A stretch of DNA of 64,000 nucleotides. Source: Oscillospiraceae bacterium. Its GTDB lineage: Bacteria; Bacillota; Clostridia; Oscillospirales; Acutalibacteraceae. The DNA is taken from contig JAISXG010000070.1 of assembly GCA_031270605.1 (NCBI GenBank), forward strand, positions 10,482-74,481. Direction: 5' to 3'. Under the pieces are notes generated by a model, which ran no database searches, was not told the DNA's origin, and worked only from the letters and a program-made list of their open reading frames with translations. Position 1 is the first letter of the stretch, and each line of letters opens with the position of its first letter. This document shows positions 30,080-46,300 of the stretch, piece by piece. The position numbers and the translations under genes were made by a program.

Positions 30080-30493
30080 TTAAAACTCCAGTTCAATCGC
30101 AATACCGCGCACCTTGCCGCCCTCAATGCGAAAGGCCCGCAAACAAGGCTCCTCAAGCGCCAAAGACAAAATGAGATAAAGCGCTTTTGGGTCCTGTGCC
30201 AGGCGGATGTCCTCATCAGAGGGGCGGGCCGGGGTCTCAGGGTGGGAATGAAAATTGCCGAGGGGTGCAATGCCCTTCGCACGCATATCCTTCACCGCCG
30301 CAAGCTGCTCGCGCGGGTCAATCGAAAAATGCTCGCTGCTGTGGTCAATATTTGTCAGCGGATATACTTGCTCAATATAAAATTCATCCGCCTCCGCCCG
30401 GCCCGCAATCAATCCGCAGGCCTCTTCGGGCAGAGCCGATTTTGCATGGTCAACGATTTTATTAAAATCATCATAGTTCAGGTGAATTCTCAT
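30080..30493 (-). CDS. JAMM/MPN+ metalloprotease (HcyD / Mec+ / QbsD-like)
   Basis: 137 aa. E..CG early motif and HSHPETPARPSDED (HxHx7Sx2D JAMM motif). Confidence 0.85.
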   Translation of the reverse strand: MRIHLNYDDFNKIVDHAKSALPEEACGLIAGRAEADEFYIEQVYPLTNIDHSSEHFSIDPREQLAAVKDMRAKGIAPLGNFHSHPETPARPSDEDIRLAQDPKALYLILSLALEEPCLRAFRIEGGKVRGIAIELEF

Positions 30494-31313
30494 GGCTCTC
30501 CCCCTCCGCTTTCAAGTCGCACGCGGGCACTTCATAATCAAACGGCTCGGTGATGGAAGGGTGCTCGCCGCAGACCGCGCAGTCTTTTCTTCCGGGCAAC
30601 TTGATGCGGCGAAACTCCATTGTGAGCGCGTCATAGGTCAGCAGCTTGCCTGTGAGCAGGTCGCCTTTGCCGATGAGGAACTTAATCGCCTCCATCGCCT
30701 GCAAGGACCCGATTACACCGCCCATAGCGCCCACAACCCCGGCCTGACGGCAGGTGGGGATCGCGTCCGGTGGCGGCGGCTCACGAAACACGCAGCGATA
30801 GCAGGGGCCTTCCCCCGGCACATAGGTCATCAGCTGGCCACCGAAGCGCAGAATGCCCGCGTGTGAAAAAGGCTTTTTCTGCAACACACACGCATCGTTA
30901 ATCAAAAACTTTGCGGCAAAATTATCTGTGCCGTCAATGATGAAGTCATAGTCTTGGATTAAGTCCATGATGCTCGCGGCATTTACATAAATTTGATAAG
31001 TATTCACCTGCACGTCCGGGTTAATCGCCTGCATCGTTTCTTTCGCGGACTGCACCTTTGCTTTGCCGATGTCCGCCGTGGTGTGAATCACCTGGCGCTG
31101 CAAATTGGAAAGGTCAACCGTATCAAGGTCCGCAATGCCGATGGCGCCCACGCCCGCTGCGGCAAGATAGAGCGCGATCGGCGCCCCGAGGCCGCCCGCG
31201 CCGATAATCAACACCTTGCCGTTGAGGAGCTTTTTCTGCCCCTTTGCGCCAACCTCTTTTAACAGGATGTGGCGGGAATAACGCTCCAGCTGTTCATTTG
31301 TGAAGGCCATCAA
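30471..31313 (-). CDS. ThiF/MoeB/HesA-family E1-like adenylyltransferase (HcyF-like)
   Basis: 280 aa. GAGGLGAP nucleotide loop and paired CxxC zinc motifs (CYRC, CAVC). Confidence 0.85.
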   Translation of the reverse strand: MMAFTNEQLERYSRHILLKEVGAKGQKKLLNGKVLIIGAGGLGAPIALYLAAAGVGAIGIADLDTVDLSNLQRQVIHTTADIGKAKVQSAKETMQAINPDVQVNTYQIYVNAASIMDLIQDYDFIIDGTDNFAAKFLINDACVLQKKPFSHAGILRFGGQLMTYVPGEGPCYRCVFREPPPPDAIPTCRQAGVVGAMGGVIGSLQAMEAIKFLIGKGDLLTGKLLTYDALTMEFRRIKLPGRKDCAVCGEHPSITEPFDYEVPACDLKAEGESHENSPEL

Positions 31314-31516
31314 GCGCCGCCCCCCATAAAGTATAAAAATTCAATGTTGTCACCGTCCTTGAGAACGGTGTCGGCAAACGCGCCGCTTTCCACAAAGTCG
31401 TCATTGAGTGAAACCGTCACATACTGGGGGGAGTCGATGTTCTCTTTTTCAATGAGCGCCGCAAGCGTTGTACCCTCCGCGTATTCTTTTTTATCTCCTG
31501 CAACAATAATTGTCAT
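31310..31516 (-). CDS. ThiS/MoaD-family sulfur carrier protein ending ...MGGGA (HcyS-like, Gly-Gly plus one Ala)
   Basis: 68 aa with a beta-grasp-sized sequence. 4-nt overlap with the E1 gene. Confidence 0.8.
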   Translation of the reverse strand: MTIIVAGDKKEYAEGTTLAALIEKENIDSPQYVTVSLNDDFVESGAFADTVLKDGDNIEFLYFMGGGA

Positions 31517-31553
31517 GGTGATTCCTCCAATTGTTTGGGCGTTCGTATTATTC

Positions 31554-31811
31554 TTATTCGTCGTCCACTTTTTTCACGAGCAGGGTGTATGTGCCATCGT
31601 CATTGTGGAGCAGCTTTAAAATCTGGTGGCCCTCCTCTTTTACACTGCGGGGCACATTCTGCACCGGCTCACCGTCATTGAGGCGCACGGCAAGAATTTG
31701 CCCGTCGTCCAGTTCATCCAAAGCAACCTTGGTTTTCACAAAGGTCACAGGGCACACAACGTCTGTGATGTCAAGATTCTCGTCTATTTTAATGTCCATA
31801 ATAAAATTCAC
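31554..31811 (-). CDS. TusA/SirA-family sulfurtransferase
   Basis: 85 aa. LDITDVVCP conserved Cys context. Collinear with E. coli TusA. Confidence 0.7.
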   Translation of the reverse strand: MNFIMDIKIDENLDITDVVCPVTFVKTKVALDELDDGQILAVRLNDGEPVQNVPRSVKEEGHQILKLLHNDDGTYTLLVKKVDDE

Positions 31812-32658
31812 TCATCTCTTTCTGAAACACATCCCAGCCCACACGCTCAATCGCCACGCGGAAACGCTCGCTGGGGTTTGCGTGCCGGTCAAAGAAATCA
31901 AGCGCGGCATCGGCCGCTTTAAAAACCTGCTCTTTGTCTTGCATAATGGGGAACAGCTGCTCGCCAAAGGCAATTTTGTTGCCGAAGGTGCCGCCGAACG
32001 AAAGAATATAACCCGGCTCACCCTTCCACGCGTCAAACGGGCAGGACTTCACACAGCGGCCGCAGTTATTGCACTTGTCTTCTTCAATCACAATTTTTTT
32101 ATCCTCTTCTGTGAGCGCCCCCTCACGGCAGGCCTTGATGCAAATACCGCACAGGGTGCAGGCCTCGGGAATCCATTCAATAAGATAACCGCCCTTTACG
32201 CCAAGGTCGTTTTCCTCGGCTTTCAGGCAGTTGTTCATACATCCCGTCACACCAAACTTGAACTTATGAGGCAATTCACGGCCGAAATAGCGTTCTGACA
32301 GCTCAACCGCAAGCGGGTAGGTGTCAATGCAGCCGGAGGGACAGACCTCGCTGCCCTGGCAGGCCGTGACGGTACGCACACGCGGGCCACACACGCCGGT
32401 GAAAACCTCTCCCTCCAAAAGCTTTTCTTTGACCGAGTCAATATCTTTGAGCTTGATGAAAGGAATTTCAACCCCCTGACGGGAGGTCAGATGCACATGA
32501 CCGGCACCATATTCTTTCGCAACCTCTGCAATGGTGATGATCTGCTCCGCCGTGAGGTTGCCCCCCACAACTTTCAAGCGCAGGGAAAAATGATTTTTTT
32601 GCTTTTGGCGCATAAATCCGCCGTTTTTCAGCGCTTTATAATCAACAGCCATGCTCAT
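31789..32658 (-). CDS. Small sulfite reductase-like protein (nitrite/sulfite reductase siroheme-[4Fe-4S] domain with an inserted 2x[4Fe-4S] ferredoxin)
   Basis: 289 aa. Cys clusters TACQGSEVCPSGC, GCMNNC, CTLCGICIKAC and CNNCGRCVKSCP. Confidence 0.75.
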   Translation of the reverse strand: MSMAVDYKALKNGGFMRQKQKNHFSLRLKVVGGNLTAEQIITIAEVAKEYGAGHVHLTSRQGVEIPFIKLKDIDSVKEKLLEGEVFTGVCGPRVRTVTACQGSEVCPSGCIDTYPLAVELSERYFGRELPHKFKFGVTGCMNNCLKAEENDLGVKGGYLIEWIPEACTLCGICIKACREGALTEEDKKIVIEEDKCNNCGRCVKSCPFDAWKGEPGYILSFGGTFGNKIAFGEQLFPIMQDKEQVFKAADAALDFFDRHANPSERFRVAIERVGWDVFQKEMSEFYYGH

Positions 32659-33893
32659 TCTCCTTTCATGCTCTCAATCGCCTGACCGAAATCTTCAATT
32701 AAGTCTTCAATATCCTCAATGCCCACACTCACGCGGATCATATCGTCATAAACCCCTGCGTCACTCTTTTTCTCTTCACTGGAATGCAGATAAATCGTGG
32801 ACGCCGGGTGGATTACCAAGGTGCGCACATCGCCGATGTTCGTGGCGATTTTGGGAATTTTCAATGCGTTCACAAGCCGGAATGCCCGCTCCTTTGAGCC
32901 TGCGCGCAGCGTTAAAATCGCACCGCCCTGCCCCTTTTCCATTTGAGAATCCACAAAGCCTTTATAAGGGCTGCTAGCAAGGCCGGGGTAGCTCACACCC
33001 GCAAGCTCACTTTGCGTTTCCAAAAATTCCGCCAAAGCGAGGGCGTTTGCACACAGCCGCTCCATGCGCAGGCCGAGCGTTTCCAGCCCCAAACAGTTCA
33101 AATATGCGTTCTGCGGCGCAATGCAGGGGCCGAAGTTGCGCCAAAGGTCACCCCGCAAGCGTGCGGTATAAGCAAATTTGCCCATTTTCTGATAACCTGC
33201 CAAAGCGGAAAAGCGTTCAAAATCCCACGCAAATTTGCCGCCGTCAACAATGATGCCGCTGAGTGCGTCGCCACTGCCGTTGATGTATTTTGAAGAGGAA
33301 TGCACCACAATGTCCGCACCGTGGGCAAGGGGGAGAATCAGCGCCGCCGTGGCCGTGGTGCTGTCAATCACCAACGGGATTTTATGTTGCTTCGCCAGTG
33401 TGGAAACCTCCGCAAGGTCAACCACGTCAAGGCGGGGATTGCCGAAGAGTTCAGCAAAAATCACCTTGGTGCACCCGTTAATCTGGGGTGCGATTTCCGC
33501 CGCCGTCATGTTTTTCACAAACCGTGTTTTGATGCCGAACCTTTCAAAGTCGGCCAGCAGGTCAAGCGTGCCGCCGAACAGCGCGCTTGAAGAAATGATT
33601 TCGTCTCCGCTCTCAAGAATGTTCAGCAAGGCCATGGAAACGGCCGCCATGCCCGAAGCACAGGCAACGGCGTCAACGCCCCCCTCAAGCGTGGCAATGC
33701 GCTTTTCAAACGCCATCACCGTGGGGTTTGAAATGCGTGTGTAAGCAAAGCCGGGAGCCTTGCCGGCAAAGACCTTTTCCAGCTGTTCGGCACTCTCATG
33801 CGCGAACGCGGAGGTCTGATAAACGGCGGGGAGGGTTGCGCCGGTGGTGTCAAAGGGATTTGTGCCTTGCAAAAGACGTGTGTTAAACCGCAT
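32655..33893 (-). CDS. metY: O-acetylhomoserine sulfhydrylase / aminocarboxypropyltransferase (PLP)
   Basis: 412 aa. Cys/Met-metabolism PLP family, with SSSKYINGSG as the PLP lysine context. Confidence 0.85.
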   Translation of the reverse strand: MRFNTRLLQGTNPFDTTGATLPAVYQTSAFAHESAEQLEKVFAGKAPGFAYTRISNPTVMAFEKRIATLEGGVDAVACASGMAAVSMALLNILESGDEIISSSALFGGTLDLLADFERFGIKTRFVKNMTAAEIAPQINGCTKVIFAELFGNPRLDVVDLAEVSTLAKQHKIPLVIDSTTATAALILPLAHGADIVVHSSSKYINGSGDALSGIIVDGGKFAWDFERFSALAGYQKMGKFAYTARLRGDLWRNFGPCIAPQNAYLNCLGLETLGLRMERLCANALALAEFLETQSELAGVSYPGLASSPYKGFVDSQMEKGQGGAILTLRAGSKERAFRLVNALKIPKIATNIGDVRTLVIHPASTIYLHSSEEKKSDAGVYDDMIRVSVGIEDIEDLIEDFGQAIESMKGE

Positions 33894-33925
33894 CGCGCTT
33901 CATCCTTTTCTTTAATCAATTTTTC

Positions 33926-33969
33926 TACGGCTGCGGCGCTTAAATCAATGGGAGCGCCGTGTAGCCGTA
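33926..33969 (-). other. Interrupted 14-bp hairpin at the ABC-ATPase/metY junction
   Basis: tacggct-g-cggcgct ... agcgccg-tgt-agccgta spans the ATPase stop codon. There is no T run on the - strand. Confidence 0.3.
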
Positions 33970-34695
33970 TTTATTTTTCTTTAAAGCAATACCGAAGACT
34001 TTGTCAACGGCGCCACTCTGTGCAATCTCCCGCGGCGCACCGCAGCATTGCAGCTTTCCGTCAGCCAGCAGCAGCGCATAGTCACTCCGTTCCAACGCAA
34101 GCGGAAGGTCGTGCAGCACCATCACCACGGTTTTCCCCCCGTCCGCAAGGGTGCGCAAGAGCGCCATCAATTCATATTGCACGCGGATGTCAAGATAAGC
34201 CGTGGGCTCGTCAAGCAAAATCAACGGTGTGTCCTGCGCCACAGTCATAGCAAGGCAGGCTCTTTGCCGCTGCCCGCCCGAAAGCGAAGTCAGGCGGCGG
34301 TGGGAAAACTCCCACGCACCTGTCAGGCGCAGGGCATTTTCAATGATGTCCCTGTCTTTTTGTGAAAGCACATGCCGCCGCGACAAATGGGGGTAGCGGC
34401 CGTGTGCGGCAAGGTCAAACACCGTGATGTCCGGCACCGTGCGCCACTGGGGAAAAAAGGAGATACGCTTTGCCCGCTCTTTGGGCGGCAAAACTCCAAG
34501 GTCGTGCCCCGAAACCGCTATGCTGCCCGCAGTGGGGCGAAGCAGTCCCGCGGCCAGACGTAGCAGCGTGCTCTTTCCGCAGGCGTTCGGGCCGATGAGG
34601 CAAGTGATTTTTTCGCCGGGAATCGAAAAGCTCAGCTTCTCTAAGACCGGCGTTTTTTTATCATATGTAAACGACATATCAGAAAACTCAAGCAT
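33940..34695 (-). CDS. ABC transporter ATP-binding protein (FecE/BtuD/FhuC class)
   Basis: Walker A GPNACGKST, signature LSGGQRQR, Walker B LILLDEP. The ATG at 34695 sits 7 nt after GAGAGGA. Confidence 0.85.
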   Translation of the reverse strand: MLEFSDMSFTYDKKTPVLEKLSFSIPGEKITCLIGPNACGKSTLLRLAAGLLRPTAGSIAVSGHDLGVLPPKERAKRISFFPQWRTVPDITVFDLAAHGRYPHLSRRHVLSQKDRDIIENALRLTGAWEFSHRRLTSLSGGQRQRACLAMTVAQDTPLILLDEPTAYLDIRVQYELMALLRTLADGGKTVVMVLHDLPLALERSDYALLLADGKLQCCGAPREIAQSGAVDKVFGIALKKNKYGYTALPLI

Positions 34696-34727
34696 AATAA
34701 AATCCTCTCGCTCGGATGAAAAACTCT

Positions 34728-35729
34728 TCAAGCCTTCTTTTTCCGCAGCAGCAGGTAAAGGAAGAACGGTCCACCTAAAAAGGAAAGTAAAATCCCCGCG
34801 GGAAGTTCATACGGGGCGAAAATCATGCGGCTCAACAAATCGCAAAACGTCACCAAAACCGCGCCCAGCAAAGCACAGACGGGCAACAAGCGGCGGTGGC
34901 CCGCCGCCGGGCAAAGCCTTCGCGCAAGGTGCGGCGTCATCAGCCCGACAAACCCGAGAAGACCGCAAACACTGACCGAAGCGCCGGCCAAAACAGAGGA
35001 AACAGTCAAAATCACGCCCCGGGCAAGGGGCACGCGCATGCCCAGAGAGGCCGCGGTTTCATCGCCCAACACAAACACATCCAGTTCCCCCGCAAACAGT
35101 GTTGCCGCCGCAAGACCCGCCGCGACATAATACACAGCAGGCATTAAGGCACTCCAAGTGATACCCGAAAAGCCGCCAATCATAAAACTGCGGTAACCGG
35201 CAAGAGATTCCGGGTAAAAGGTGTGCACCGCGTCAATTCCGGCAGACAAGATGCTGCCGATTGCCACACCCGCAAGCAAAATCGTGCCCCGGCGCGAGCC
35301 GGTGCGCGCGCTCACGGCAAAAATCAAAAGCGAAGCCAAAACAGCGCCGCCGAAAGCAAACGCAGGCGTCCAGCCGCTTGCGAGCGAAAGAAACGCGCCG
35401 CACAATGCCACGGCAAGCCCGGCGCCCGAATTGATGCCGAGCAGCGTGGGGCTGGCAAGGGGGTTACTGAGCAAAGTTTGCACCATCAGACCGCTCACCG
35501 CAAGAGACGCGCCACAAACCACATTTGCGGCAATGCGAGGCATGCGGATAAGCCAGAGAATCTGACTCTGCGTGTTCTGCTCACGCGGATGCAGCAGGGC
35601 GTTTATGAACTCAGAAAAAGAGAGATTCGCAGCACCTGCCGCCAAAGAAACCAATATAATAACAAACAGTAAAACAAGCAGTAAAAAAGGGAACCAGTTA
35701 CGGATACAGGATCGCCGCAAGCTTTTCAT
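34728..35729 (-). CDS. FecCD-family ABC permease (iron-chelate / cobalamin type)
   Basis: Polytopic membrane protein with FecCD layout. The probable ATG at 35729 follows a GGGGTGA RBS; the track ORF starts at a TTG inside the upstream gene. Confidence 0.8.
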   Translation of the reverse strand: MKSLRRSCIRNWFPFLLLVLLFVIILVSLAAGAANLSFSEFINALLHPREQNTQSQILWLIRMPRIAANVVCGASLAVSGLMVQTLLSNPLASPTLLGINSGAGLAVALCGAFLSLASGWTPAFAFGGAVLASLLIFAVSARTGSRRGTILLAGVAIGSILSAGIDAVHTFYPESLAGYRSFMIGGFSGITWSALMPAVYYVAAGLAAATLFAGELDVFVLGDETAASLGMRVPLARGVILTVSSVLAGASVSVCGLLGFVGLMTPHLARRLCPAAGHRRLLPVCALLGAVLVTFCDLLSRMIFAPYELPAGILLSFLGGPFFLYLLLRKKKA

Positions 35730-36639
35730 AGCTTTCACCCCACCGATCGTTGGGTTTGTAGTGATAGAGCTCCCGCTCAAGCACAAACCATTTGCCGTTT
35801 TTCACAGCGCTCAAACTCTTCCATGCGGGCTGCGTTGCAATCATCTGCTCAAACGCTGTCTTGACCTCTTTATCTTGCATGCCCAATGCCGTCACAAAAA
35901 TATATTCGGGGTCCGCCTGCAGAATGATTTCAAGAGAAAGCTCTTCCAAAAGCGAAGGGTAGTCGTCCGCAATATTTTTTGCGCCCAAGTCACGCAGCAC
36001 TTCAACTGCCACCGTGCCCTTATTCTTCACACCCGCACCGTTGGAAGTGAACCGCAGCTGCAAAACTGTCGGCCCTGTTTTTCCTTCGGCACGCGCAAGC
36101 GCTCCGGCAATTTTCGCTTTGGGCGTTGTAATTAACTGTTCCTGCAAATCCTCCCGGCCGGTGAGGCGCAAAAAGAGTTCGGCAATCATTTTATAATCAT
36201 CAAATGTGTCGCAGGTGAAATAGGCGGCGGGGATTTTCATCGCCGAAAGCCCCTCTTTGAGCGCAAGCTGCCCCGCAATGTCCGCCGAAAGAATCACAAG
36301 GTCGGGGTTCAGCGAAGCGATTTTCTCAAGGCTCGGCTCTTTTGACGCTCCCACCAGCACCGCGTCGCCCACATCGAGCTGCCGCTCACCCGCCGCGTCG
36401 TCCGTCACACCCACAAGCGTTCCGCCCGCGGAAAGCCAGATGTCAGAATAAGAAGCATACACACAAACCACCCGCTGGGGGGCATCTGCAAGGGTAATGC
36501 GCGTTCCTTCGGTGTCCGTAAACGAATACTCTATATTCTTCTCAGTGGCAGAAGTCACGTCAACCTGCGTTGCGGGCCGGCAGGCCGACAACAGGAAAAG
36601 AATCAAAACAAATATACAAATAAATATCGTTTTTTTCAT
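35698..36639 (-). CDS. ABC substrate-binding lipoprotein (FecB/BtuF periplasmic-binding-protein class)
   Basis: 313 aa. Lipobox LLSAC after a hydrophobic signal peptide. Confidence 0.8.
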   Translation of the reverse strand: MKKTIFICIFVLILFLLSACRPATQVDVTSATEKNIEYSFTDTEGTRITLADAPQRVVCVYASYSDIWLSAGGTLVGVTDDAAGERQLDVGDAVLVGASKEPSLEKIASLNPDLVILSADIAGQLALKEGLSAMKIPAAYFTCDTFDDYKMIAELFLRLTGREDLQEQLITTPKAKIAGALARAEGKTGPTVLQLRFTSNGAGVKNKGTVAVEVLRDLGAKNIADDYPSLLEELSLEIILQADPEYIFVTALGMQDKEVKTAFEQMIATQPAWKSLSAVKNGKWFVLERELYHYKPNDRWGESYEKLAAILYP

Positions 36640-36685
36640 AAAAACACCATTAAACCGTCAATCCTATATATTTAATATGATTTAA

Positions 36686-36714
36686 AGTATAGTATTTTTC
36701 CTATTACCTGTCAA
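36686..36714 (-). promoter_or_regulatory. Candidate sigma-A promoter of the ABC-metY-sir-carrier operon
   Basis: On the - strand: TTGACA, 17-nt spacer, TATACT. The leader would be only about 40 nt, leaving no room for a riboswitch. Confidence 0.5.
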
Positions 36715-36785
36715 CGATTTTATAAAATTCAGCAATGTATCCATAAAAAAGTTGCATTTGGTTAATAGTTTATATGGTTTCTACA

Positions 36786-36814
36786 TTGACTTTTCCATGC
36801 CCTCCCTGTATCAT
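36786..36814 (+). promoter_or_regulatory. Candidate sigma-A promoter of the SPL-hydrolase-MFS unit
   Basis: TTGACT, 17-nt spacer, TATCAT. Confidence 0.5.
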
Positions 36815-36855
36815 ACTATTCATATATAACATATAATTTTAGTATGAATAGTATG
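36812..36855. promoter_or_regulatory. 13-bp perfect inverted repeat overlapping the -10 element and early leader (operator candidate)
   Basis: catactattcata-N18-tatgaatagtatg. Confidence 0.45.
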
Positions 36856-36871
36856 TTTAAGGGGTGACAAG

Positions 36872-38230: not shown

Positions 38231-38247
38231 CAAAAAAGAGGGGACTC

Positions 38248-39951: not shown

Positions 39952-39986
39952 AAACTTCCGCCTCGCAGAGAAAGGATGATTTCATA

Positions 39987-41261
39987 ATGAGCCCTGCACA
40001 AACCGCAGCACTCTCCCCTCCAAAAATAAAAGAACAGCAAGCTTTGGGCATCGCCCGCATTTTGCTTTTGTCTCTGCCCTATGCTTGGATTTCAGTATTC
40101 AACAGTGTGCTTGACAACGGCCTGCCCGTTTTTCTTGTTGCTCCAATTGCAGACGGCGGCCTTGCTTTAAGCTTTACGGCCAAGGGCATTGTGATGGCGA
40201 TTGACAACATCCTCGGGTTGTTTCTACTGCCGCTGTTCGGCAAACTGTCAGACAGAAGTCAAACCCGCTTCGGCAAACGCTCGCCCTTCATCATCATCGG
40301 CGGCGCAGGCGCAGTCATTACATGGGCGGTCACCGGCCTTTTTCTCGGCATGCACGCAAAGTGGATGTTTTTGATTCTGCTTTCTTCGGCGCTCGGATTC
40401 ATCGCCATATCCCGCCCGGCGTCTCTTTCTCTGCTGCCGGACATGACGCCCCTCTCCCAGCGCCGCAGCGCCAACGCCATCACCCAGATTGTCAGCATTG
40501 TCTGCACCGTTGTGGGCATTTTATTAGTTTCTATTTTTGCCCCAAAGGGCTACGAAACCGTTTTTTACGGCACATCGGCCGTCATGCTGGTGCTGATTGT
40601 TTTATATCTGTTCACCGTGCGTGAAAAACAATGGGCTGCGGAAAGCGCTATTTTGATGAACGAAGACTCCGATGCAGTGCAAAGCACGCAATCCGGCAAT
40701 GCTTCCCGTTTTAACAGGCGTATGCTGCTCTGCGTTGTATTTTTCTTTTATGTAGCATATAACGGCCTTGTTTCCTCTCTCTCCAACTACGCAATGGAAG
40801 TGCTCCATCTCTCAAAAGATAAATTTGTGCTTCCTCAGGCAATGACGCTCGTAATGGCCTGTATCGTTGCCGTTCCTGTGGCGAAACTCTCCGCAAAGCT
40901 GCGGCGCAAAACATCACTGCTCATCGGTGTTGCAACCATGGGCACGGCGTTCACGGTTGCCGGGCTACAGAGCGGACTGAATGCATTGATGTTCATCAGC
41001 TTTTTGCTTGTGGGCGTGGGATTCGCTGCAGTCATCGTGAACCTTTACCCTTACATGCTGGAGCTTTCAGACCCCGATAAAATCGGCAGCAGCACAGGTG
41101 TTTTTAATACTGTGATGACGCTCGCCATGGTACTTACCCCCATTATGAGCGGCTGGCTTTCTGATCAAATCGGCATCATTATTTTGTTTCCCTACTGTAT
41201 CGCCGCGCTGGCGCTTTCGCTCCTTGCGCTTGTATGTATGAAAGATAAAAAGACAGGTTAA
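39987..41261 (+). CDS. MFS transporter (GPH / MFS_2-like loop motif)
   Basis: 424 aa, about 12 TM segments. Loop 2-3 motif GKLSDRSQTRFGKRSPFII. Confidence 0.8.
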   Translation: MSPAQTAALSPPKIKEQQALGIARILLLSLPYAWISVFNSVLDNGLPVFLVAPIADGGLALSFTAKGIVMAIDNILGLFLLPLFGKLSDRSQTRFGKRSPFIIIGGAGAVITWAVTGLFLGMHAKWMFLILLSSALGFIAISRPASLSLLPDMTPLSQRRSANAITQIVSIVCTVVGILLVSIFAPKGYETVFYGTSAVMLVLIVLYLFTVREKQWAAESAILMNEDSDAVQSTQSGNASRFNRRMLLCVVFFFYVAYNGLVSSLSNYAMEVLHLSKDKFVLPQAMTLVMACIVAVPVAKLSAKLRRKTSLLIGVATMGTAFTVAGLQSGLNALMFISFLLVGVGFAAVIVNLYPYMLELSDPDKIGSSTGVFNTVMTLAMVLTPIMSGWLSDQIGIIILFPYCIAALALSLLALVCMKDKKTG

Positions 41262-41294
41262 AACAGTTCACTTTAAAATTTGATAGTTTGTTTC

Positions 41295-41458
41295 TAGGCC
41301 TTGTTTGTAAAATAGGAATTTGACGAAAAGCGAGAGATTTTTTCGCAAAACAAGGCCAAAAATTGCAGGAATACTTGCCGTATTGCAAGATTTTTTAACG
41401 CAGATTTGCGGAAAAATATCCGTCTTTTGGGCAAGTTGTCATTTTCAAACAAGGCCTA
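41295..41458. repeat. 13-bp perfect inverted repeat pair bracketing the MFS/aminotransferase spacer, plus an internal third partial copy
   Basis: taggccttgtttg (41295-41307) and caaacaaggccta (41446-41458). The partial copy aaaacaaggcc is at 41347-41357. Confidence 0.45.
41363..41396 (+). terminator. Terminator-like hairpin plus T6 after the MFS gene
   Basis: ttgc-agg-aatac-ttgcc-gtatt-gcaa followed by g-a-tttttt. Confidence 0.45.
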
Positions 41459-41479
41459 ATAAGAAAGGATGGTCATAAA

Positions 41480-42814
41480 ATGCCCTCTTTAACAAAAGAA
41501 GAAGTTCTCGCACTTGATAAACAATATAACCAGCACCCTTGGCTGACCGGCACGGTGGAACCCCTCGCCATTGCCCGCGCCGAAGGTATTTATTTCTGGG
41601 ATTATGACGGTAAACGCTATTTTGATATGTCCTGCCAGTTGACCTGCTCAAATATTGGCTTCGGCAACGAAGCGGTCAACAACGCGATCAAAGCACAGCT
41701 TGACCGGTTTGCCTATGTCGCCCCCGCGCACGCGTTTGAAGCAAAGTCCGTGCTTGCCAAAAAGCTTGTTGAACTGGCCGGCGGCGGCATGGCAAAGGTG
41801 TTTTTCACCTGCGGCGGTTCGGACGCGAATGAAGCGGCCCTCAACATGGCCCGCACGGTCACAGGCCGCGCGAAGGTGCTTTCACGCTACCGCAGCTATC
41901 ACGGCTCAACGCTGGGCAGCGGCAACATCTCGGGCGACCCCCGCCGATTCTCCCTTGAACAACCTGCCGCAAACGGCTTTTTAAAATTTTTTGACCCTTA
42001 TGTTTACCGTTCGGACAGAGCATTTGAAAGCGACGCGGCAGCTTCAGCTTATTATCTCGGCCTGCTCGAATCGCAGATTCAGTATGAAGGCACAGACCAG
42101 ATCGCGGCGGTTTTTGTGGAGTCCGTCACCGGCGCAAACGGCGTAATCGTCCCGCCGGACGGTTATTTGCAAGGCCTGCGCGAGCTGTGCACCAGATACG
42201 GCATCCTGCTTGTGTGCGACGAAGTCATGGCGGGCTTCGGCCGCACGGGCAAAGCCTTCGGCTTCCAGCACTGGGGCGTCGAGCCGGACATCATCAGCTT
42301 CGCAAAGGGCGTTACCTGCGGCTATGTGCAGCTCGGCGGCATCATCATCAGCCGACAAATCGCCGACTTTTATAAAGACCACCTTTTCCAGTTCGGCCTG
42401 ACCTACAGCGGCCACGCACTGGCCTGCGCGGCGGGCGTCGCCTGTTTGGAGCTCTATGAAAGAGAAAACCTTTTTGAACGTGTCGCATCCCTCGGCAAGG
42501 TGCTGGGTGAGCTGCTCGAAGAACAAAAAGTAAAACATGCCTGCGTCGGTGATGTGCGCTACATCGGCCTGTTCTCGGCTCTGGAGCTTGTAAAAAGCAA
42601 AGAGACAAAGGAGCCTCTGGTTCCCTACGCAAAAGACGCGGAAGGCGTGATGAAGCGCATATTCGGCCTGCTGCGCGAACGCGGATTCTCCACCTACGGG
42701 CGTGAGAATAATATTAATGTGACTCCGCCCTTAACAATTACAGAGCAGGAGCTGCGCGAAGCCTTCGTGATTCTTGACGAAGTGCTCACGATTGTGGATA
42801 AAACCTTCATTTGA
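41480..42814 (+). CDS. Class-III (omega) PLP aminotransferase, taurine/beta-alanine:oxoacid transaminase-like
   Basis: 444 aa. GGSDANE, CDEVMAGFGRTG and ISFAKG (PLP Lys) motifs. Confidence 0.8.
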   Translation: MPSLTKEEVLALDKQYNQHPWLTGTVEPLAIARAEGIYFWDYDGKRYFDMSCQLTCSNIGFGNEAVNNAIKAQLDRFAYVAPAHAFEAKSVLAKKLVELAGGGMAKVFFTCGGSDANEAALNMARTVTGRAKVLSRYRSYHGSTLGSGNISGDPRRFSLEQPAANGFLKFFDPYVYRSDRAFESDAAASAYYLGLLESQIQYEGTDQIAAVFVESVTGANGVIVPPDGYLQGLRELCTRYGILLVCDEVMAGFGRTGKAFGFQHWGVEPDIISFAKGVTCGYVQLGGIIISRQIADFYKDHLFQFGLTYSGHALACAAGVACLELYERENLFERVASLGKVLGELLEEQKVKHACVGDVRYIGLFSALELVKSKETKEPLVPYAKDAEGVMKRIFGLLRERGFSTYGRENNINVTPPLTITEQELREAFVILDEVLTIVDKTFI

Positions 42815-42850
42815 CTGGTATTGCATCCGAAAGAAAGGAACGAACAATTT

Positions 42851-45319
42851 ATGGCAACTGTTATATATTCATCTCAGGAGCAGCGCCTGCAAAAAGAATC
42901 CAACAGCGGCGCCACAGGCTCGCGCGTGTCCGCCCTGCTTGAGCAGGTCCGCGCCGCCCGACCCGCCATCGACATAGAACGAGGCAAATATTTCACCGAA
43001 TCCTTCAAACAGACCGAAGGAGAAAAATTAATTCTGCGCTGGGCAAAAGCCTTATATCATTACGCGGCAAACGCTTCGGTTTATATTGACGACGGGCAGT
43101 TAATTGCGGGACGCATCGGCAAGGGCATCCGCTACGGCGTGCTTTACCCGGAGCTTGACGGCGACATTTTGGGCGAGGCCATCGCCTCCATCGCCTCCCG
43201 CGACACCTCCCCTTTTGACATCAGCGAAAAGGACAAGGGCATCATCCAAAACGACATCGCCCCCTACTGGAAGGGCAAAACCTTTCATGAGGCGCTCGCA
43301 AAGGCGATTCCCGCCGATACAAAGCCGCTCACATACAATAACGACGAAGAGTTCACCTCCCGTTTTGTCGTAAACGAAACCGCCTCTTTCCGTTCCTCCA
43401 TTCAATGGGTGCATGACTATGAAAAACCCCTGAAAATCGGATTTTTGGGCATTCGCGCCGAAGCGAAACAGGCCCTCTTTGCGCTTGACGAATTCAATCC
43501 GGTACATAATAACGAGAACAAGCCCTTTCTGCAGGCAATCATCCTTATGGCGGACGCGATCATTCTTTGGGCCCGCCGCCACGCGGAACTTGCCCGAAAA
43601 AAAGCCGCGGCCGAAACAAACCAAACGCGCAAGGCAGAGCTTTTGGAGCTTGCTGAAATCTGCGAAAGAGTGCCCGCCCACCCGGCGCGCACCTTCCATG
43701 AAGCCGTGCAGAGCCAATGGTTCATCCAGCTCTTCTCCCGCGTGGAGCAAAAAACAGGCACCATCATTTCAAACGGCAGAATGGATCAATATCTTTATCC
43801 CTATTATAAAGCCGACCTTGAGAGCGGCGCAATTACCCCCAATAAAGCACAGGAGCTGCTGGAATGCGTGTGGGTTTCCATGGCGCAATATGTCGACCTC
43901 TATCTCTCAAAAGCGGGCGGCGCGTTCAACGAAGGCTATGCCCATTGGGAGGCGGTCACCGTCGGCGGCCAGACGCCGGACGGGCAGGACGCAACCAATG
44001 ATTTGACCTACCTCATTTTAAAATCCAAGCGCGACTTTCCCCTCAACTATCCCGACCTCGCGGCGCGCATCCACATGCGTTCCCCCAGGCGTTATCTCTA
44101 TGACGTGGCGCAAACCGTCAAAGACGGCTCGGGCTTCCCCAAACTGATCAACGACGAGGAAGTCGTGCCCCTGCTGCTCGCGAAGGGCGCGCGGTTTGAC
44201 GAGGCCTATGACTACGCCGTTTCAGGCTGCGCGGAAGTCAGAATGCCCAATAAAGACACCTTCACCTCCCCCTGCGCCTATGTCAACTTTGCCGCGGCGC
44301 TCGAACTGGCTCTTTATAACGGCAAAATGCTGAAATACGGGGATGAACAGCTCGGATTGCAGACAGGTGAGCTGGAAGATTTTCAAGACTTTAATTCTTT
44401 CCTGCAAGCGTATCTTGCGCAGCAGAAACATTTGCTCAAGCATGCGTTCATTCAGCAATATCACGTGAACAAGCTGCGTGAGCATCATTTCGCCGCCCCG
44501 CTCTCCTCCGCGCTCAATGCGGTGTCCGTTGCGGCGCAAAGGGATATTCACACCGAATTCATCCCCGGCGGCATTGACCTTGGATATTATGAGTGCATCG
44601 GCTACGCCACGGTCATCGACTCCCTCGCGGCAATCAAAAAACTGGTGTTTGAAGAGAAAACCGTCACCGCCACCCAGCTCAAACAGGCCCTTGAAACCAA
44701 TTTTGAGAACGATGAGCTGCTGCGTCAGCGTCTGCTGCGCACCCCGGCCTACGGCAACGATGACCCCTATGCGGACGACTTCGGCAAGCTCATTGACAAA
44801 GAAGCCATCGCATTCACCGAAGGATATTGCAAAACGCTCGGTGTGCGGCTTGATTTGCGTTATGTGCCCTTCACCTCAAACGTGCCCTTCGGAAAGGTGA
44901 TTTCCGCGACGCCCAACGGCCGCTTTGCGTGGGCGCCCCTCTCCGACGGCTCGTCAGCCTCACAGGGTTCCGACAAAAAGGGCCCTGCGGCGATTCTTCT
45001 TTCAAATTTTCACACAAAGAACTATGACCGCAGCCACCGCGCCGCGCGCCTGCTAAATATCAAGTTCACCCCCGGCAGCATCGCGGGCAAAGAAGGCACA
45101 CAGCAGCTTGTGAATTTTATTGAGGGCTGGCGCGACCTGAAACTTTGGCACATCCAGTTCAACGTCATCAATCAGGAAACATTGCTAGCAGCCAAAAAGA
45201 ACCCCGAGCAATACCGTAACCTGCTTGTGCGCATTGCGGGATACAGCGCCTATTTCTGCGAGCTCTCGTCCGATTTACAGGATGATTTGATTTCACGTAC
45301 GGCGCACGGTGCAATCTAA
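42851..45319 (+). CDS. Glycyl radical enzyme of the Cys-x-Glu (eliminase/lyase) type, possibly a sulfonate C-S lyase
   Basis: C-terminal glycyl radical motif VRIAGYSAYF and thiyl loop VSGCAEV. NGRMDQYLYPYY and TFHEAVQSQWF are conserved GRE motifs. An ATG at 42851 or a TTG at 42821 could be the start. Confidence 0.85.
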   Translation: MATVIYSSQEQRLQKESNSGATGSRVSALLEQVRAARPAIDIERGKYFTESFKQTEGEKLILRWAKALYHYAANASVYIDDGQLIAGRIGKGIRYGVLYPELDGDILGEAIASIASRDTSPFDISEKDKGIIQNDIAPYWKGKTFHEALAKAIPADTKPLTYNNDEEFTSRFVVNETASFRSSIQWVHDYEKPLKIGFLGIRAEAKQALFALDEFNPVHNNENKPFLQAIILMADAIILWARRHAELARKKAAAETNQTRKAELLELAEICERVPAHPARTFHEAVQSQWFIQLFSRVEQKTGTIISNGRMDQYLYPYYKADLESGAITPNKAQELLECVWVSMAQYVDLYLSKAGGAFNEGYAHWEAVTVGGQTPDGQDATNDLTYLILKSKRDFPLNYPDLAARIHMRSPRRYLYDVAQTVKDGSGFPKLINDEEVVPLLLAKGARFDEAYDYAVSGCAEVRMPNKDTFTSPCAYVNFAAALELALYNGKMLKYGDEQLGLQTGELEDFQDFNSFLQAYLAQQKHLLKHAFIQQYHVNKLREHHFAAPLSSALNAVSVAAQRDIHTEFIPGGIDLGYYECIGYATVIDSLAAIKKLVFEEKTVTATQLKQALETNFENDELLRQRLLRTPAYGNDDPYADDFGKLIDKEAIAFTEGYCKTLGVRLDLRYVPFTSNVPFGKVISATPNGRFAWAPLSDGSSASQGSDKKGPAAILLSNFHTKNYDRSHRAARLLNIKFTPGSIAGKEGTQQLVNFIEGWRDLKLWHIQFNVINQETLLAAKKNPEQYRNLLVRIAGYSAYFCELSSDLQDDLISRTAHGAI

Positions 45320-45451
45320 TACGAATCCCTCATAAAAAGCTTGCTAAAAAATCCGCACAAAACCACATAAATCAAAGCTTTTGGTTGATTTTTTAGAGCT
45401 TTTTTAATCGGGAGTTCGTATCAATCTATTGAACAGTTCAGGGAGCGCAGC

Positions 45452-46300
45452 ATGACAGACCATGAAAAAACAGGCTATATTTTTAATATCCAGCACTTTT
45501 CTCTGCACGACGGCCCGGGCATCCGCACCAATGTGTTTCTCAAGGGTTGCCCTCTGCGTTGCCGCTGGTGCTGCAACCCCGAATCCCACGCGCTGCTGCC
45601 CGAGGCGGCGTTTGACAAGTCAAAATGCATTCTCTGCGGCGCCTGCTCTTTGGGCGCGAAAGAACCTGCAGTGCGCTTTGAACACGGTGAAAAGGTGATT
45701 GACAGGACGGCCCTGCATGCCAATGGCGAACGCCTTGCGCTGGTGTGCCCCACGGGCGCGATCAGCCTTTACGGCGAGCAGAAAAGCGTGGGAGAAATTC
45801 TTGACGAGGCCGAGCGTGACGCCGCGTTTTATTCCCGCGGCGGGGGCGGCATCACACTCAGCGGCGGCGAGCCTCTGTTTCAGGCAGAGTTCGCAACGGC
45901 AATTCTCCGTGAAGCAAAGCGGCGGCACATCCGCACCGCAATCGAAACCTGCGGACATGTGCCGTGGGAAACCCTGCGTGAGGCGGCTGAGCATCTTGAT
46001 TATGTGCTTTATGACATCAAAAGCCTGAATTCGGTAAGCCATAAAGAGCAGACGGGCGTGGGCAATGAGCAAATTCTTGAAAATTTCCGCCTGCTGTGCG
46101 AGCACTTCCCCGCCCTGCCGAAGCTGGTGCGCACACCTGTGATTCCCGAATTCAACGAACATGAGGCCCTCGAAATCAAGGCATTTGCCGAGAGTTTCCC
46201 GAACGTGACTTTTCAGGCGCTGTCCTATCATACCTTTGGCGTGAAAAAATACGCGATGCTCGGCAAAACCTATACAGGGTATATTAAAAATACAAATTAA
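45452..46300 (+). CDS. Glycyl-radical-enzyme activating enzyme (radical SAM)
   Basis: 282 aa. CPLRCRWCCNPE CX3CX2C motif plus a ferredoxin-like Cys insert (CILCGAC...CPTGA). Confidence 0.9.
   Translation: MTDHEKTGYIFNIQHFSLHDGPGIRTNVFLKGCPLRCRWCCNPESHALLPEAAFDKSKCILCGACSLGAKEPAVRFEHGEKVIDRTALHANGERLALVCPTGAISLYGEQKSVGEILDEAERDAAFYSRGGGGITLSGGEPLFQAEFATAILREAKRRHIRTAIETCGHVPWETLREAAEHLDYVLYDIKSLNSVSHKEQTGVGNEQILENFRLLCEHFPALPKLVRTPVIPEFNEHEALEIKAFAESFPNVTFQALSYHTFGVKKYAMLGKTYTGYIKNTN

What the first reader, a model, noticed from the sequence alone, without database searches (positions are those of the whole stretch)
30080..46300. Divergent organosulfur supercluster: radical-enzyme catabolic genes face a sulfite-reductase / protein-thiocarboxylate homocysteine operon
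Two units run outward from one AT-rich divergent promoter region (36640-36871). Leftward on the - strand are a FecBCD-class ABC importer, MetY, a small sulfite reductase, TusA, a ThiS-like carrier ending GG-Ala, a ThiF/MoeB E1 and a JAMM protease. Rightward on the + strand are a sphingosine-1-phosphate-lyase homologue, a cytoplasmic S12 serine hydrolase, an MFS importer, a class-III aminotransferase, a Cys-x-Glu glycyl radical enzyme (GRE) and its activase. No sulfate-activation genes (cysD/N/C/H type) are in the window, so the sulfite reductase has no local sulfite source other than a possible C-S-cleaving GRE. My working model runs: imported organosulfonate -> C2 sulfonate -> sulfite -> sulfide -> carrier thiocarboxylate -> homocysteine. 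To my knowledge, known GRE sulfo-lyases are described in dissimilatory, H2S-producing contexts. A GRE wired to an assimilatory thiocarboxylate route would therefore be a new arrangement.
Basis: inference. Interest (0 to 1): 0.8.

Follow-up and report, generated by a model that had tools for sequence, protein, structure and literature searches.

The report
Sulfonate-to-homocysteine sulfur scavenging gene cluster
An uncultured anaerobic gut-type bacterium carries a conserved gene set that most likely cuts sulfite out of taurine-type sulfonates with an oxygen-sensitive radical enzyme and passes the sulfur through a small carrier protein into homocysteine; both halves are already known separately, but their union and three extra genes (a sphingosine-phosphate-lyase look-alike, a serine hydrolase and a transporter) are new and testable.

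Summary
They diverge from a 232-bp, 27% GC spacer that holds the two best promoter-like sites of the region.

- The GRE is an isethionate sulfite-lyase (IslA/IseG type). All ten mutagenesis-tested IslA residues are identical.
- The aminotransferase is closest to taurine:2-oxoglutarate aminotransferase.
- The left unit matches the Wolinella HcyS-type thiocarboxylate route: a carrier ending GGGA, a JAMM protease, an E1, a sulfite reductase and MetY.
- The two halves lie within about 10 kb of each other in five species-level genomes with four different gene orders. In one genome they form a single 20-kb co-directional gene string. In a sixth genome they are apart.

The novelty premise is wrong. 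GRE-based taurine sulfur assimilation was published for Clostridium butyricum in 2019.

What I did not find described:
- the union of the taurine/isethionate route with the thiocarboxylate route;
- a conserved SPL-like/S12 hydrolase/MFS trio, placed where plain taurine clusters carry TauABC. I propose that the trio makes taurine inside the cell, perhaps from capnine-type sulfonolipids (speculative).

The window has no sulfoacetaldehyde reductase. Relatives carry an Fe-ADH in the cluster.

The parts
30080..30493 (-). JAMM/Prok-JAB metalloprotease (HcyD-like). Predicted to remove the C-terminal Ala of the carrier and later to release homocysteine from it.
   Evidence: PF14464, 92 bits. Motif HSHPETPARPSDED (HxHx7SxxD) and an upstream EEACG.
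30471..31313 (-). ThiF/MoeB-type E1 adenylyltransferase for the carrier (HcyF-like).
   Evidence: PF00899, 286 bits. NCBIfam MoeB/UbaA-like. GxGxxG and two CxxC motifs.
31310..31516 (-). ThiS-like sulfur carrier of 68 aa, ending GGGA (diglycine masked by one Ala).
   Evidence: TIGR01683, 68 bits; PF02597. Sequence.
31554..31811 (-). TusA-family sulfur-transfer protein with the conserved Cys-Pro.
   Evidence: PF01206, 70 bits. CP motif. Always next to the sulfite reductase in relatives.
31789..32658 (-). Small (289 aa) siroheme-type sulfite reductase with an inserted 2x[4Fe-4S] ferredoxin domain.
   Evidence: PF03460 + PF01077 + Fer4. Closest solved structure is the C-terminal sulfite-reductase half of F420-dependent Fsr, 7NP8, 135 bits. 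CX5C...CX3C and two CxxCxxCxxxC motifs.
32655..33893 (-). MetY-type O-acetylhomoserine sulfhydrylase. Predicted acceptor enzyme for the carrier thiocarboxylate.
   Evidence: PF01053, 364 bits. TIGR01326, 420 bits, below its cut-off of 495. Best PDB matches are OAH sulfhydrylases; W. succinogenes MetY 3RI6 scores 281 bits.
33940..36639 (-). FecBCD/BtuCDF-class ABC importer: ATPase 33940-34731, permease 34728-35786, lipoprotein binding protein 35698-36639. Role inferred: supply of iron or a tetrapyrrole for the sulfite reductase.
   Evidence: PF00005, PF01032, PF01497. The binding protein's best NCBIfam match is the heme-binding IsdE, 79 bits, sub-threshold. Present in the window, L001 and L005. 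Replaced by siroheme biosynthesis genes in L168 and L003/L171.
36640..36871 (.). Divergent control region: back-to-back promoter-like sites and a palindrome over the -10/leader of the plus-strand operon.
   Evidence: GC 27%. Minus strand: TTGACA-17-TATACT, 36714..36686, 11 of 12. Plus strand: TTGACT-17-TATCAT, 36786..36814, 10 of 12. 21-nt arms at 36804-36824 and 36843-36863, with a perfect 13-mer CATACTATTCATA. The ATCATA..ATTCATAT element is partly conserved in L001, L003, L005 and L008. No Rfam family.
36872..38230 (+). Soluble sphingosine-1-phosphate-lyase homologue, PLP-dependent, 452 aa, without the N-terminal membrane segment. Predicted to generate taurine.
   Evidence: 385 bits to StSPL 3MAD and 377 bits to human SPL. 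Conserved: K241 (=K311), K247 (=K317), Y37 (=Y105), N58 (=N126), Y412 (=Y482). Changed: phosphate-binding H129->N61, S353->T283, A103->L35 (residue roles from PMC10243590).
38248..39951 (+). Cytoplasmic S12 (class C beta-lactamase fold) serine hydrolase with a C-terminal beta-barrel domain. Predicted amidase or esterase that frees the substrate of the lyase.
   Evidence: PF00144. SFSK and YTN motifs, no signal peptide. AlphaFold model pLDDT 90. Fold matches: Lsa45 esterase, NylB amidases, family VIII esterases, and the two-domain Pab87, SurE and IS11.
39987..41261 (+). MFS transporter, the predicted importer of the organosulfonate substrate.
   Evidence: PF07690, 156 bits. No informative close relative. 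Gene order SPL-S12-MFS is kept in six genomes.
41480..42814 (+). Taurine:2-oxoglutarate aminotransferase-like class III aminotransferase (Toa).
   Evidence: 498 bits to 6JIX (taurine:2-oxoglutarate aminotransferase). The next PDB hit scores 265 bits.
42851..45319 (+). [quoted passage not shown] The ORF is open from TTG 42821; the likely start is ATG 42851.
   Evidence: 1147 bits to IseG 5YMR, 1102 to IslA 7KQ3, 1076 to HpsG 6LON. R189, I192, Q193, W374, C468, E470, R678, V680, F682 and G805 are all identical to IslA (PMC8473560). Start codon.
45452..46300 (+). GRE-activating radical SAM enzyme (IslB-like).
   Evidence: TIGR02494, 299 bits, above its cut-off. CPLRCRWC motif.

Best explanation
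The region is one conserved sulfur-scavenging unit of an anaerobic Oscillospiraceae bacterium. It turns a taurine-yielding organosulfonate into homocysteine.

Right arm.
1. A substrate is imported by the MFS transporter.
2. The cytoplasmic S12 hydrolase and the SPL-like PLP enzyme process it to taurine. This step is inferred. The favoured version is N-acyl-capnine -> capnine -> taurine + fatty aldehyde, by the same retro-aldol chemistry that SPL applies to sphingosine-1-phosphate.
3. Toa transaminates taurine to sulfoacetaldehyde.
4. An Fe-alcohol dehydrogenase reduces it to isethionate. This gene is missing from the window but sits in the cluster in five relatives.
5. The IslB-activated glycyl radical enzyme IslA cleaves isethionate to acetaldehyde and sulfite.

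Left arm.
6. The small siroheme sulfite reductase reduces sulfite to sulfide.
7. The JAMM protease trims the carrier's terminal Ala.
8. The E1 adenylates the exposed Gly-Gly, and sulfide converts it to a thiocarboxylate. TusA possibly assists.
9. MetY transfers the sulfur to O-acetylhomoserine.
10. The protease releases homocysteine.

The FecBCD-type importer probably supplies iron or a tetrapyrrole for the reductase.

Shown by sequence and synteny: the enzyme families, the active-site residues and the conserved linkage. Inferred: every substrate and the flux.
For: Enzyme identities.
- GRE: IslA/IseG are the top solved relatives. All ten IslA residues tested by mutagenesis are identical (PMC8473560).
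- Aminotransferase: 498 bits to Toa 6JIX, against 265 bits for the next hit.
- Sulfite reductase: matches the Fsr sulfite-reductase half.
- Carrier ending GGGA, an intact JAMM motif, an E1 and MetY. This matches the published W. succinogenes route (Krishnamoorthy & Begley 2011, cited in PMC5764234; MetY with a thiocarboxylate donor, PMC8191291).

Linkage of the two halves.
- Window and L001: divergent arrangement.
- L168/L169: one co-directional gene string, hemA-sirC-hemC-cobA/hemD-hemB-hemL-MetY-SiR-TusA-ThiS-ThiF-JAB-SPL-S12-MFS-Toa-GRE-AE-FeADH.
- L003+L171: a third gene order on one contig.
- L005/L088: a fourth order.

The trio.
- SPL-S12-MFS-Toa-GRE order is identical in six genomes.
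- A plain taurine cluster (L172) has TauABC where these clusters have MFS+S12+SPL.
- SPL chemistry applied to a 1-sulfonate instead of a 1-phosphate gives exactly taurine, which is Toa's substrate. Capnine is described as the sulfur analogue of S1P (PMC9304779).
- SPL homologues of 60% identity or less (about 150 loci) have none of these neighbours.
Against: - No sulfoacetaldehyde reductase lies in the 64-kb window.
- L001, L008 and L010 also lack an adjacent activase.
- L177 carries the right-hand operon without the sulfite reductase/carrier module within 10 kb.
- MetY is absent from the cluster in L003 and L005.
- The window's MetY is not especially close to the Wolinella enzyme.
- The changes in the SPL head-group pocket (H129->N and others) are shared by the whole soluble SPL-like family across phyla. 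They do not mark a sulfonate-specific clade.
- In L006/L007 a 63-67% identical SPL-like protein sits with a TauA/SsuA-type ABC importer for small polar solutes, which argues against a lipid substrate there.
- The MFS and S12 proteins have no informative characterised relatives.
- Whether the genome has a sulfate-reduction route elsewhere is unknown.
Confidence: 0.6

Rival explanations
1. The SPL-like enzyme is a decarboxylase, not a lyase. It converts L-cysteate (or cysteine sulfinate) to taurine (or hypotaurine). The S12 hydrolase frees that amino acid from a peptide or amide. The rest of the pathway is as in the best explanation.
For: - The protein belongs to the group II decarboxylase fold: PF00282, and the MfnA model at 256 bits against a cut-off of 299.
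- Decarboxylation of cysteate also gives taurine.
- The L006/L007 relatives sit with a TauA/SsuA-type ABC importer suited to small polar sulfonates.
- JGI names the S12 relatives 'CubicO group peptidase'.
- Two-domain S12 peptidases (Pab87, Lip3 DL-peptidase) appear among the fold matches.
Against: - The match to true S1P lyases (385 and 377 bits) is far stronger than the match to MfnA decarboxylases (135 bits).
- The SPL active-site and substrate-contact residues K317, Y105 and Y482 are conserved.
Confidence: 0.2
2. The two arms are neighbours without a shared flux. The right arm is a fermentative or nitrogen-acquiring taurine/isethionate pathway. The left arm is ordinary sulfite- or sulfide-based methionine synthesis, fed from any sulfite source.
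For: - L177 has the right-hand operon next to Fe-ADH, SSF and LuxS instead of the carrier module.
- L172 has IslAB without a carrier module.
- Toa-type enzymes are described for nitrogen acquisition (PMC13081988).
Against: - The modules stay within about 10 kb of each other in five species-level genomes despite four different gene orders.
- In L168 all 19 named genes run co-directionally as one gene string with short gaps.
- The SPL gene directly abuts the sulfite reductase gene in L003, L005 and L011.
Confidence: 0.12
3. The GRE is an HpsG-type dihydroxypropanesulfonate (DHPS) sulfolyase, as NCBI's model would name it. The substrate would be a C3 sulfonate derived from sulfoquinovose or cysteinolate.
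For: - NF048011 (HpsG, Desulfovibrio type) scores 1421 bits against a cut-off of 1000.
- HpsG 6LON scores 1076 bits.
Against: - IseG and IslA score higher (1147 and 1102 bits).
- At the two pocket positions that differ between IslA and HpsG in the alignments (IslA I192 and F682; HpsG L and I), the window protein has the IslA residues.
- The partners are a taurine aminotransferase and, in relatives, an Fe-ADH. That is the taurine -> isethionate logic.
- No IslA model appeared among the 12 NCBIfam hits, so the HpsG model may simply absorb IslA sequences.
Confidence: 0.08

Closest known systems
Taurine sulfur-assimilation cluster of Clostridium butyricum (IseG/IseH with a taurine aminotransferase and a sulfoacetaldehyde reductase; Xing et al. 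2019, Biochem J 476:2271)
   Same: A fermenting Firmicute uses a taurine aminotransferase plus the isethionate sulfite-lyase GRE and its activase to obtain sulfite for assimilation rather than respiration. A cluster of that general type was seen here in L172.
   Different: - TauABC is replaced here by MFS + S12 hydrolase + SPL-like enzyme.
- The reductase is not in the window.
- The sulfite is wired to a carrier-protein thiocarboxylate/MetY module rather than to CysK-type chemistry.
- I could not read the 2019 paper, so its exact gene list is from memory and from citing papers.
Protein-thiocarboxylate-dependent methionine biosynthesis of Wolinella succinogenes (HcyS-Ala, HcyD, HcyF, Sir, MetY; Krishnamoorthy & Begley 2011)
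   Same: A ThiS-like carrier with one residue after the Gly-Gly, a JAMM protease, an E1 adenylyltransferase, a sulfite reductase and MetY in one cluster.
   Different: - Here the reductase is a 289-aa Fsr-C-like enzyme with a ferredoxin insert.
- A TusA protein is always adjacent to it.
- The sulfite source is encoded next door (IslA), rather than coming from sulfate reduction.
- MetY is missing from two related clusters.
Dissimilatory taurine/isethionate pathway of Bilophila wadsworthia and Desulfovibrio (Tpa, SarD, IslA/IslB or IseG/IseH)
   Same: The same C-S cleavage enzyme, with identical active-site residues.
   Different: There are no microcompartment, Dsr or AdhE genes here. The sulfite goes to a small assimilatory-type reductase and a biosynthetic carrier.
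Sphingosine-1-phosphate lyase (StSPL, human SGPL1)
   Same: Strong full-length sequence similarity (385 and 377 bits). The PLP lysine and the residues K317, Y105 and Y482 are conserved.
   Different: - No N-terminal membrane segment.
- The phosphate-contacting His129 is Asn.
- The host is not known to make sphingolipids.
- The gene sits in a sulfonate operon.

Membership tests
Isethionate sulfite-lyase (IslA/IseG) glycyl radical enzymes | Glycyl radical motif (RVxG) and a Cys-x-Glu loop | tested here: met
   RIAGY at 804 and GCAE at 469. PF02901 + PF01228.
Isethionate sulfite-lyase (IslA/IseG) glycyl radical enzymes | Sulfonate-anchoring Arg189, Gln193 and Arg678, and pocket residues Ile192, Trp374, Val680 and Phe682 | tested here: met
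   All are identical in the alignment to 7KQ3. Residue roles come from PMC8473560 and PMC13450708.
Isethionate sulfite-lyase (IslA/IseG) glycyl radical enzymes | Dedicated radical SAM activase encoded alongside | tested here: met
   45452-46300: TIGR02494 at 299 bits, CX3CX2C. Absent next to the GRE in L001, L008 and L010.
Isethionate sulfite-lyase (IslA/IseG) glycyl radical enzymes | Sulfite release from isethionate | not testable with these tools
   Needs anaerobic enzyme assays.
HpsG DHPS sulfolyase | Pocket enlarged for the C3 substrate (Leu and Ile at the positions of IslA I192 and F682, as read from the alignment) | tested here: not met
   The window has Ile and Phe (FRSSIQW, RYVPFTS). 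HpsG 6LON has SALQW and RYVPITS. The NF048011 score of 1421 bits nevertheless passes its cut-off.
HcyS-type protein-thiocarboxylate homocysteine synthesis | ThiS-fold carrier whose Gly-Gly is masked by an extra C-terminal residue | tested here: met
   The carrier ends ...FMGGGA. TIGR01683 at 68 bits.
HcyS-type protein-thiocarboxylate homocysteine synthesis | JAMM metalloprotease and E1 adenylyltransferase in the same operon | tested here: met
   HxHx7SxxD motif and a ThiF domain. The genes overlap or abut on the minus strand.
HcyS-type protein-thiocarboxylate homocysteine synthesis | Sulfite reductase and MetY encoded with the carrier | tested here: met
   MetY is absent from the L003 and L005 clusters.
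HcyS-type protein-thiocarboxylate homocysteine synthesis | Thiocarboxylate formation and transfer to O-acetylhomoserine | not testable with these tools
   Needs protein mass spectrometry and reconstitution.
Sphingosine-1-phosphate lyase | PLP lysine plus the residues equivalent to StSPL K317, Y105 and Y482 | tested here: met
   K241, K247, Y37 and Y412.
Sphingosine-1-phosphate lyase | Phosphate head-group site (Y105, N126, H129, S353) | tested here: not met
   H129->N61 and S353->T283. The same holds in about 160 soluble homologues. Residue roles from PMC10243590.
Sphingosine-1-phosphate lyase | N-terminal membrane-associated segment | tested here: not met
   The protein starts at the position of StSPL residue ~70.
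Taurine -> isethionate -> sulfite pathway (Toa/Tpa, SarD, IslAB) | Taurine aminotransferase | tested here: met
   498 bits to 6JIX.
Taurine -> isethionate -> sulfite pathway (Toa/Tpa, SarD, IslAB) | Sulfoacetaldehyde reductase in the cluster | tested here: not met
   No Fe-ADH homologue in the 64-kb window. Present in L005, L168, L171, L172 and L177.

The most novel reading that the evidence does not exclude
The SPL-like enzyme is a capnine (sulfonosphingoid) lyase and the S12 protein is a sulfonolipid N-deacylase. Together with the MFS importer they would form the first described catabolic route for Bacteroidota sulfonolipids. The route would yield taurine, and its sulfur would then be passed by IslA, a small sulfite reductase and a ThiS-like thiocarboxylate into homocysteine. 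By extension, the large soluble SPL-like family with Asn or Ser in place of the phosphate-binding His may act on sulfonate rather than phosphate head groups.
Probability: 0.3. Interest if true: 0.8.

Novelty: new variant of a known kind. Interest (0 to 1): 0.6.

Why it matters
- It would show that strict anaerobes can live on organosulfonate sulfur through a self-contained operon that ends in methionine precursors. That bypasses free sulfide and sulfate activation.
- It joins two pathways so far described separately: GRE-based taurine assimilation and carrier-protein thiocarboxylate methionine synthesis.
- The conserved SPL-like/S12/MFS trio gives a concrete, cheaply testable candidate for the unknown fate of sulfonolipids or other taurine-yielding conjugates in anaerobic communities. 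It also suggests a function for a bacterial SPL homologue in an organism not known to make sphingolipids.
- It exposes a likely annotation problem. IslA-type enzymes are being named '(2S)-3-sulfopropanediol dehydratase'.

Tried and rejected
- Riboswitch or leader control: no Rfam family at gathering score in the window. Only chance-level miRNA models appear in the spacer.
- A sulfonate-specific signature in the SPL pocket: the H129N, S353T and A103L changes turned out to be family-wide, so they cannot mark the sulfur-linked clade.
- Wider synteny from the genome and metagenome scans: 80 + 80 loci, but almost all were 60% identical or less and lacked every cluster gene. Only L008-L011 and L088 were informative.
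- MFS typing against solved structures: only marginal hits.
- Contexts of the S12 relatives: those 50% identical or less are stand-alone genes in unrelated neighbourhoods.
- S12 fold search: it confirms an esterase/amidase-type S12 fold with a C-terminal beta-barrel but gives no substrate.
- The GFO/IDH/MocA oxidoreductase at 48923-50101 as the missing reductase: rejected. It lies in a convergent operon with an amidohydrolase and a weakly ROK-like protein.
- Reading Xing et al. 2019 and Krishnamoorthy & Begley 2011: neither paper is held. Their content is cited from memory and through citing papers.


Full report
**Observation**

Family searches confirm every assignment.

Minus strand:
- Prok-JAB, ThiF, ThiS and TusA;
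- a 289-aa NIR_SIR protein carrying two ferredoxin motifs;
- a Cys/Met-metabolism PLP enzyme of the O-acetylhomoserine sulfhydrylase type;
- an ABC ATPase, a FecCD permease and a Peripla_BP_2 lipoprotein.

Plus strand:
- a group II PLP enzyme and a beta-lactamase-fold hydrolase;
- an MFS transporter and a class III aminotransferase;
- a PFL-like glycyl radical enzyme and a radical SAM activase.

Motif checks all pass:
- JAMM protease: HxHx7SxxD.
- Carrier: ends GGGA.
- TusA: Cys-Pro.
- Sulfite reductase: CX5C...CX3C plus two CxxCxxCxxxC.
- S12 hydrolase: SFSK and YTN, with no signal peptide.
- GRE: GCAE and RIAGY.
- Activase: CX3CX2C.

The 232-bp spacer is 27% GC in a 52.6% GC window. It contains the two best sigma-70-like matches of the 16.6-kb region, back to back. 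It also holds an imperfect 21-nt palindrome over the plus-strand -10 and leader.

The rest of the window is housekeeping: IF-2, NusA, TruB, RibF, POR subunits, acetate kinase, SpoVT and others. It has no sulfate-activation, Fe-ADH or siroheme genes.

According to the source record, the window is a contig of an Oscillospiraceae MAG.

**The individual enzymes**

*GRE.* Its best solved relatives are IseG 5YMR (1147 bits), IslA 7KQ3 (1102) and the DHPS sulfolyase HpsG 6LON (1076). Choline lyases follow far behind.
- In the residue-level alignments, all ten IslA positions probed by mutagenesis are identical. These are R189, I192, Q193, W374, C468, E470, R678, V680, F682 and G805 (PMC8473560; PMC13450708).
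- HpsG has Leu and Ile at the positions of I192 and F682.
- The enzyme is therefore IslA-type, although NCBI's HpsG model passes its cut-off (1421 against 1000 bits). No IslA model appeared among the hits.
- The likely start is ATG 42851, which follows an AAAGGAA ribosome-binding site.

*Aminotransferase.* It matches taurine:2-oxoglutarate aminotransferase 6JIX at 498 bits. The next structure scores 265 bits.

*Sulfite reductase.* It matches the C-terminal, siroheme-containing half of F420-dependent sulfite reductase.

*MetY-like protein.* It is a generic O-acetylhomoserine sulfhydrylase. The Wolinella enzyme ranks fifth among solved structures.

*First plus-strand gene.* It is a genuine S1P-lyase homologue: 385 bits to StSPL, 377 to the human enzyme, and only 135 to MfnA decarboxylases.
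- It lacks the N-terminal ~70 residues.
- It keeps K311, K317, Y105, N126 and Y482.
- It replaces the phosphate-contacting H129 by Asn, S353 by Thr and A103 by Leu (residue roles from PMC10243590).

**Comparative genomics**

*How far the association reaches.* Homologues of the SPL-like protein are numerous: 7850 at E<=1e-30. Only those at 63% identity or more sit in sulfur contexts. About 150 loci at 43-60% identity, from the genome and metagenome scans, carry none of the cluster genes.

*Arrangements in the close clade:*
- L001/L009: repeats the window's divergent layout and adds a thioredoxin.
- L168/L169: everything lies in one co-directional gene string. The order is six siroheme-synthesis genes, MetY, SiR, TusA, ThiS, ThiF, JAB, SPL, S12, MFS, Toa, GRE, activase, Fe-ADH.
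- L003 plus L171 (one 108-kb contig): GRE-activase-FeADH-Toa converges on hem genes-JAB-ThiS-ThiF-TusA-SiR-SPL. S12 and MFS are divergent.
- L005/L088: GRE-activase-FeADH-Toa, then S12 on the opposite strand, then SPL-SiR-TusA-ThiF-ThiS-JAB-FecCD-ABC-SBP.
- L008 and L010: they keep SPL-S12-MFS-Toa-GRE up to a contig end.
- L011: shows SPL followed by SiR.
- L177: keeps SPL-S12-MFS-Toa-GRE-activase, but this operon faces Fe-ADH, an SSF transporter and LuxS instead of the carrier module.

*What this shows.*
- The right-hand gene order is conserved in six genomes.
- The two halves lie within about 10 kb of each other in five of the six genomes where this can be judged.
- An Fe-ADH, the expected sulfoacetaldehyde reductase, belongs to the cluster in L005, L168, L171, L172 and L177. 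It is missing from the window.
- Matching contig lengths among the three homologue lists suggest about a dozen contigs that carry SPL together with S12, at least nine of them with the GRE too. This is indirect.

**Mechanism**

*Core.* Toa, an Fe-ADH, IslA and IslB form the published taurine -> sulfoacetaldehyde -> isethionate -> sulfite sequence. The left unit has every defining part of the Wolinella succinogenes thiocarboxylate route to homocysteine (cited through PMC5764234 and PMC8191291). Conserved linkage in several gene orders argues that the sulfite made by IslA is the substrate of the small reductase.

*Front end.* A plain taurine cluster in a Ruminococcus MAG (L172) has a TauABC-type importer, CysK and siroheme genes next to GRE-activase-FeADH-Toa. 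In the clusters studied here the TauABC position is taken by MFS + S12 + SPL-like. I therefore propose that this trio delivers taurine from a precursor.
- SPL cleaves the C2-C3 bond of a 2-amino-3-hydroxy-1-phosphate lipid and releases phosphoethanolamine.
- The same chemistry on the 1-sulfonate analogue capnine would release taurine. Capnine is called the sulfur analogue of S1P in PMC9304779.
- The S12 enzyme would be the N-deacylase. It has an esterase/amidase-type fold with a C-terminal beta-barrel.

This front end is inference. A cysteate decarboxylase role would also yield taurine and is the main rival.

*ABC importer.* Across the five clusters, the FecBCD-class importer (window, L001, L005) and siroheme biosynthesis genes (L168, L003/L171) never occur together. 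This points to a cofactor or iron supply role rather than substrate uptake. The sample is small.

**Comparison with the literature**

- GRE-based sulfonate sulfur assimilation is not new. Xing et al. 2019 reported it for Clostridium butyricum (reference 24 of PMC13081988). The paper itself is not held.
- The thiocarboxylate route dates from 2011.
- In the held library, no paper combines isethionate with thiocarboxylate.
- No paper combines capnine with S1P lyase.
- The only paper containing capnine, taurine and isethionate together concerns cysteate.
- The union of the two pathways and the SPL-like/S12/MFS trio therefore appear undescribed, within the limits of that library.

**Verdict**

This is a new variant of known systems, with a speculative but sharply testable extension to sulfonolipid catabolism.

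| Claim | Confidence |
|---|---|
| GRE is an IslA-type enzyme | about 0.85 |
| The two arms are functionally coupled | about 0.8 |
| Thiocarboxylate route to homocysteine | about 0.7 |
| The trio generates taurine | about 0.5 |
| The substrate is a capnine-type lipid | about 0.3 |

Noticed in passing
window 36804-36863; also L001, L003, L005 and L008 upstream of the SPL-like gene: An imperfect 21-nt palindrome with a perfect 13-mer (CATACTATTCATA / TATGAATAGTATG) overlaps the -10 and leader of the plus-strand operon. An ATCATA..ATTCATAT element and an ATTCCTATA..ATTTAATATG element are partly conserved in related spacers. This is probably an operator for a shared, unidentified regulator.
   Followed up: partly
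window 33940-36639; L001, L005 versus L168, L003/L171: The FecBCD-class ABC importer and a six-gene siroheme biosynthesis block never occur together in the five clusters. The importer may salvage a tetrapyrrole or iron for the sulfite reductase.
   Followed up: partly
window 42851-45319: NCBIfam NF048011, named '(2S)-3-sulfopropanediol dehydratase' (HpsG), scores 1421 bits on a protein whose pocket residues are IslA-type. UniRef and NCBI give the same name to 66-67% identical proteins of Megasphaera, Moorella and Pectinatus. Mis-naming of isethionate sulfite-lyases may be systematic.
   Followed up: partly
L006 and L007 (Eubacterium-type MAGs): A 63-67% identical SPL-like gene sits in a different cluster: MetK, two paralogous ~410-aa proteins (one with a weak radical SAM hit), a TauA/SsuA-type ABC importer and a GNAT acetyltransferase. 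L007 also has ThiF, ThiS and JAB upstream. Function unknown.
   Followed up: no
L012-L167 (about 150 loci from many phyla): The soluble ~440-aa SPL-like family has Asn or Ser in place of the phosphate-binding His129 of true SPLs in almost all of about 160 homologues (Gly or Asp in three). The gene is often followed directly by a membrane transporter gene. Among 122 loci with enough downstream sequence, MFS_2 follows in 10, TauE/SafE in 7 and DUF819 in 5; DUF819 lies within 5 kb in 24 of about 150 loci.
   Followed up: partly
window 27777-29962: An Rrf2-family regulator and a 553-aa protein with a sigma-70 region 4 domain lie just beyond the JAMM gene. ECF-type sigma factor genes with an adjacent unknown protein also flank the clusters in L003 and L177.
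   Followed up: no
window 41262-41479: A 218-bp, 34% GC gap with a terminator-like hairpin (41374-41389) lies between the MFS and aminotransferase genes. The right arm may be read as two transcripts.
   Followed up: no
window 46352-50101 (minus strand): A convergent operon encodes a 458-aa protein with only a weak ROK-family hit, an amidohydrolase and a GFO/IDH/MocA oxidoreductase. The two longest ORFs overlap by about 220 nt, so one start is probably miscalled.
   Followed up: no
L001, L008, L010: These close relatives have the GRE but no activase gene next to it. The window, L168, L171, L005 and L177 do have one. The activase must be encoded elsewhere or shared.
   Followed up: no
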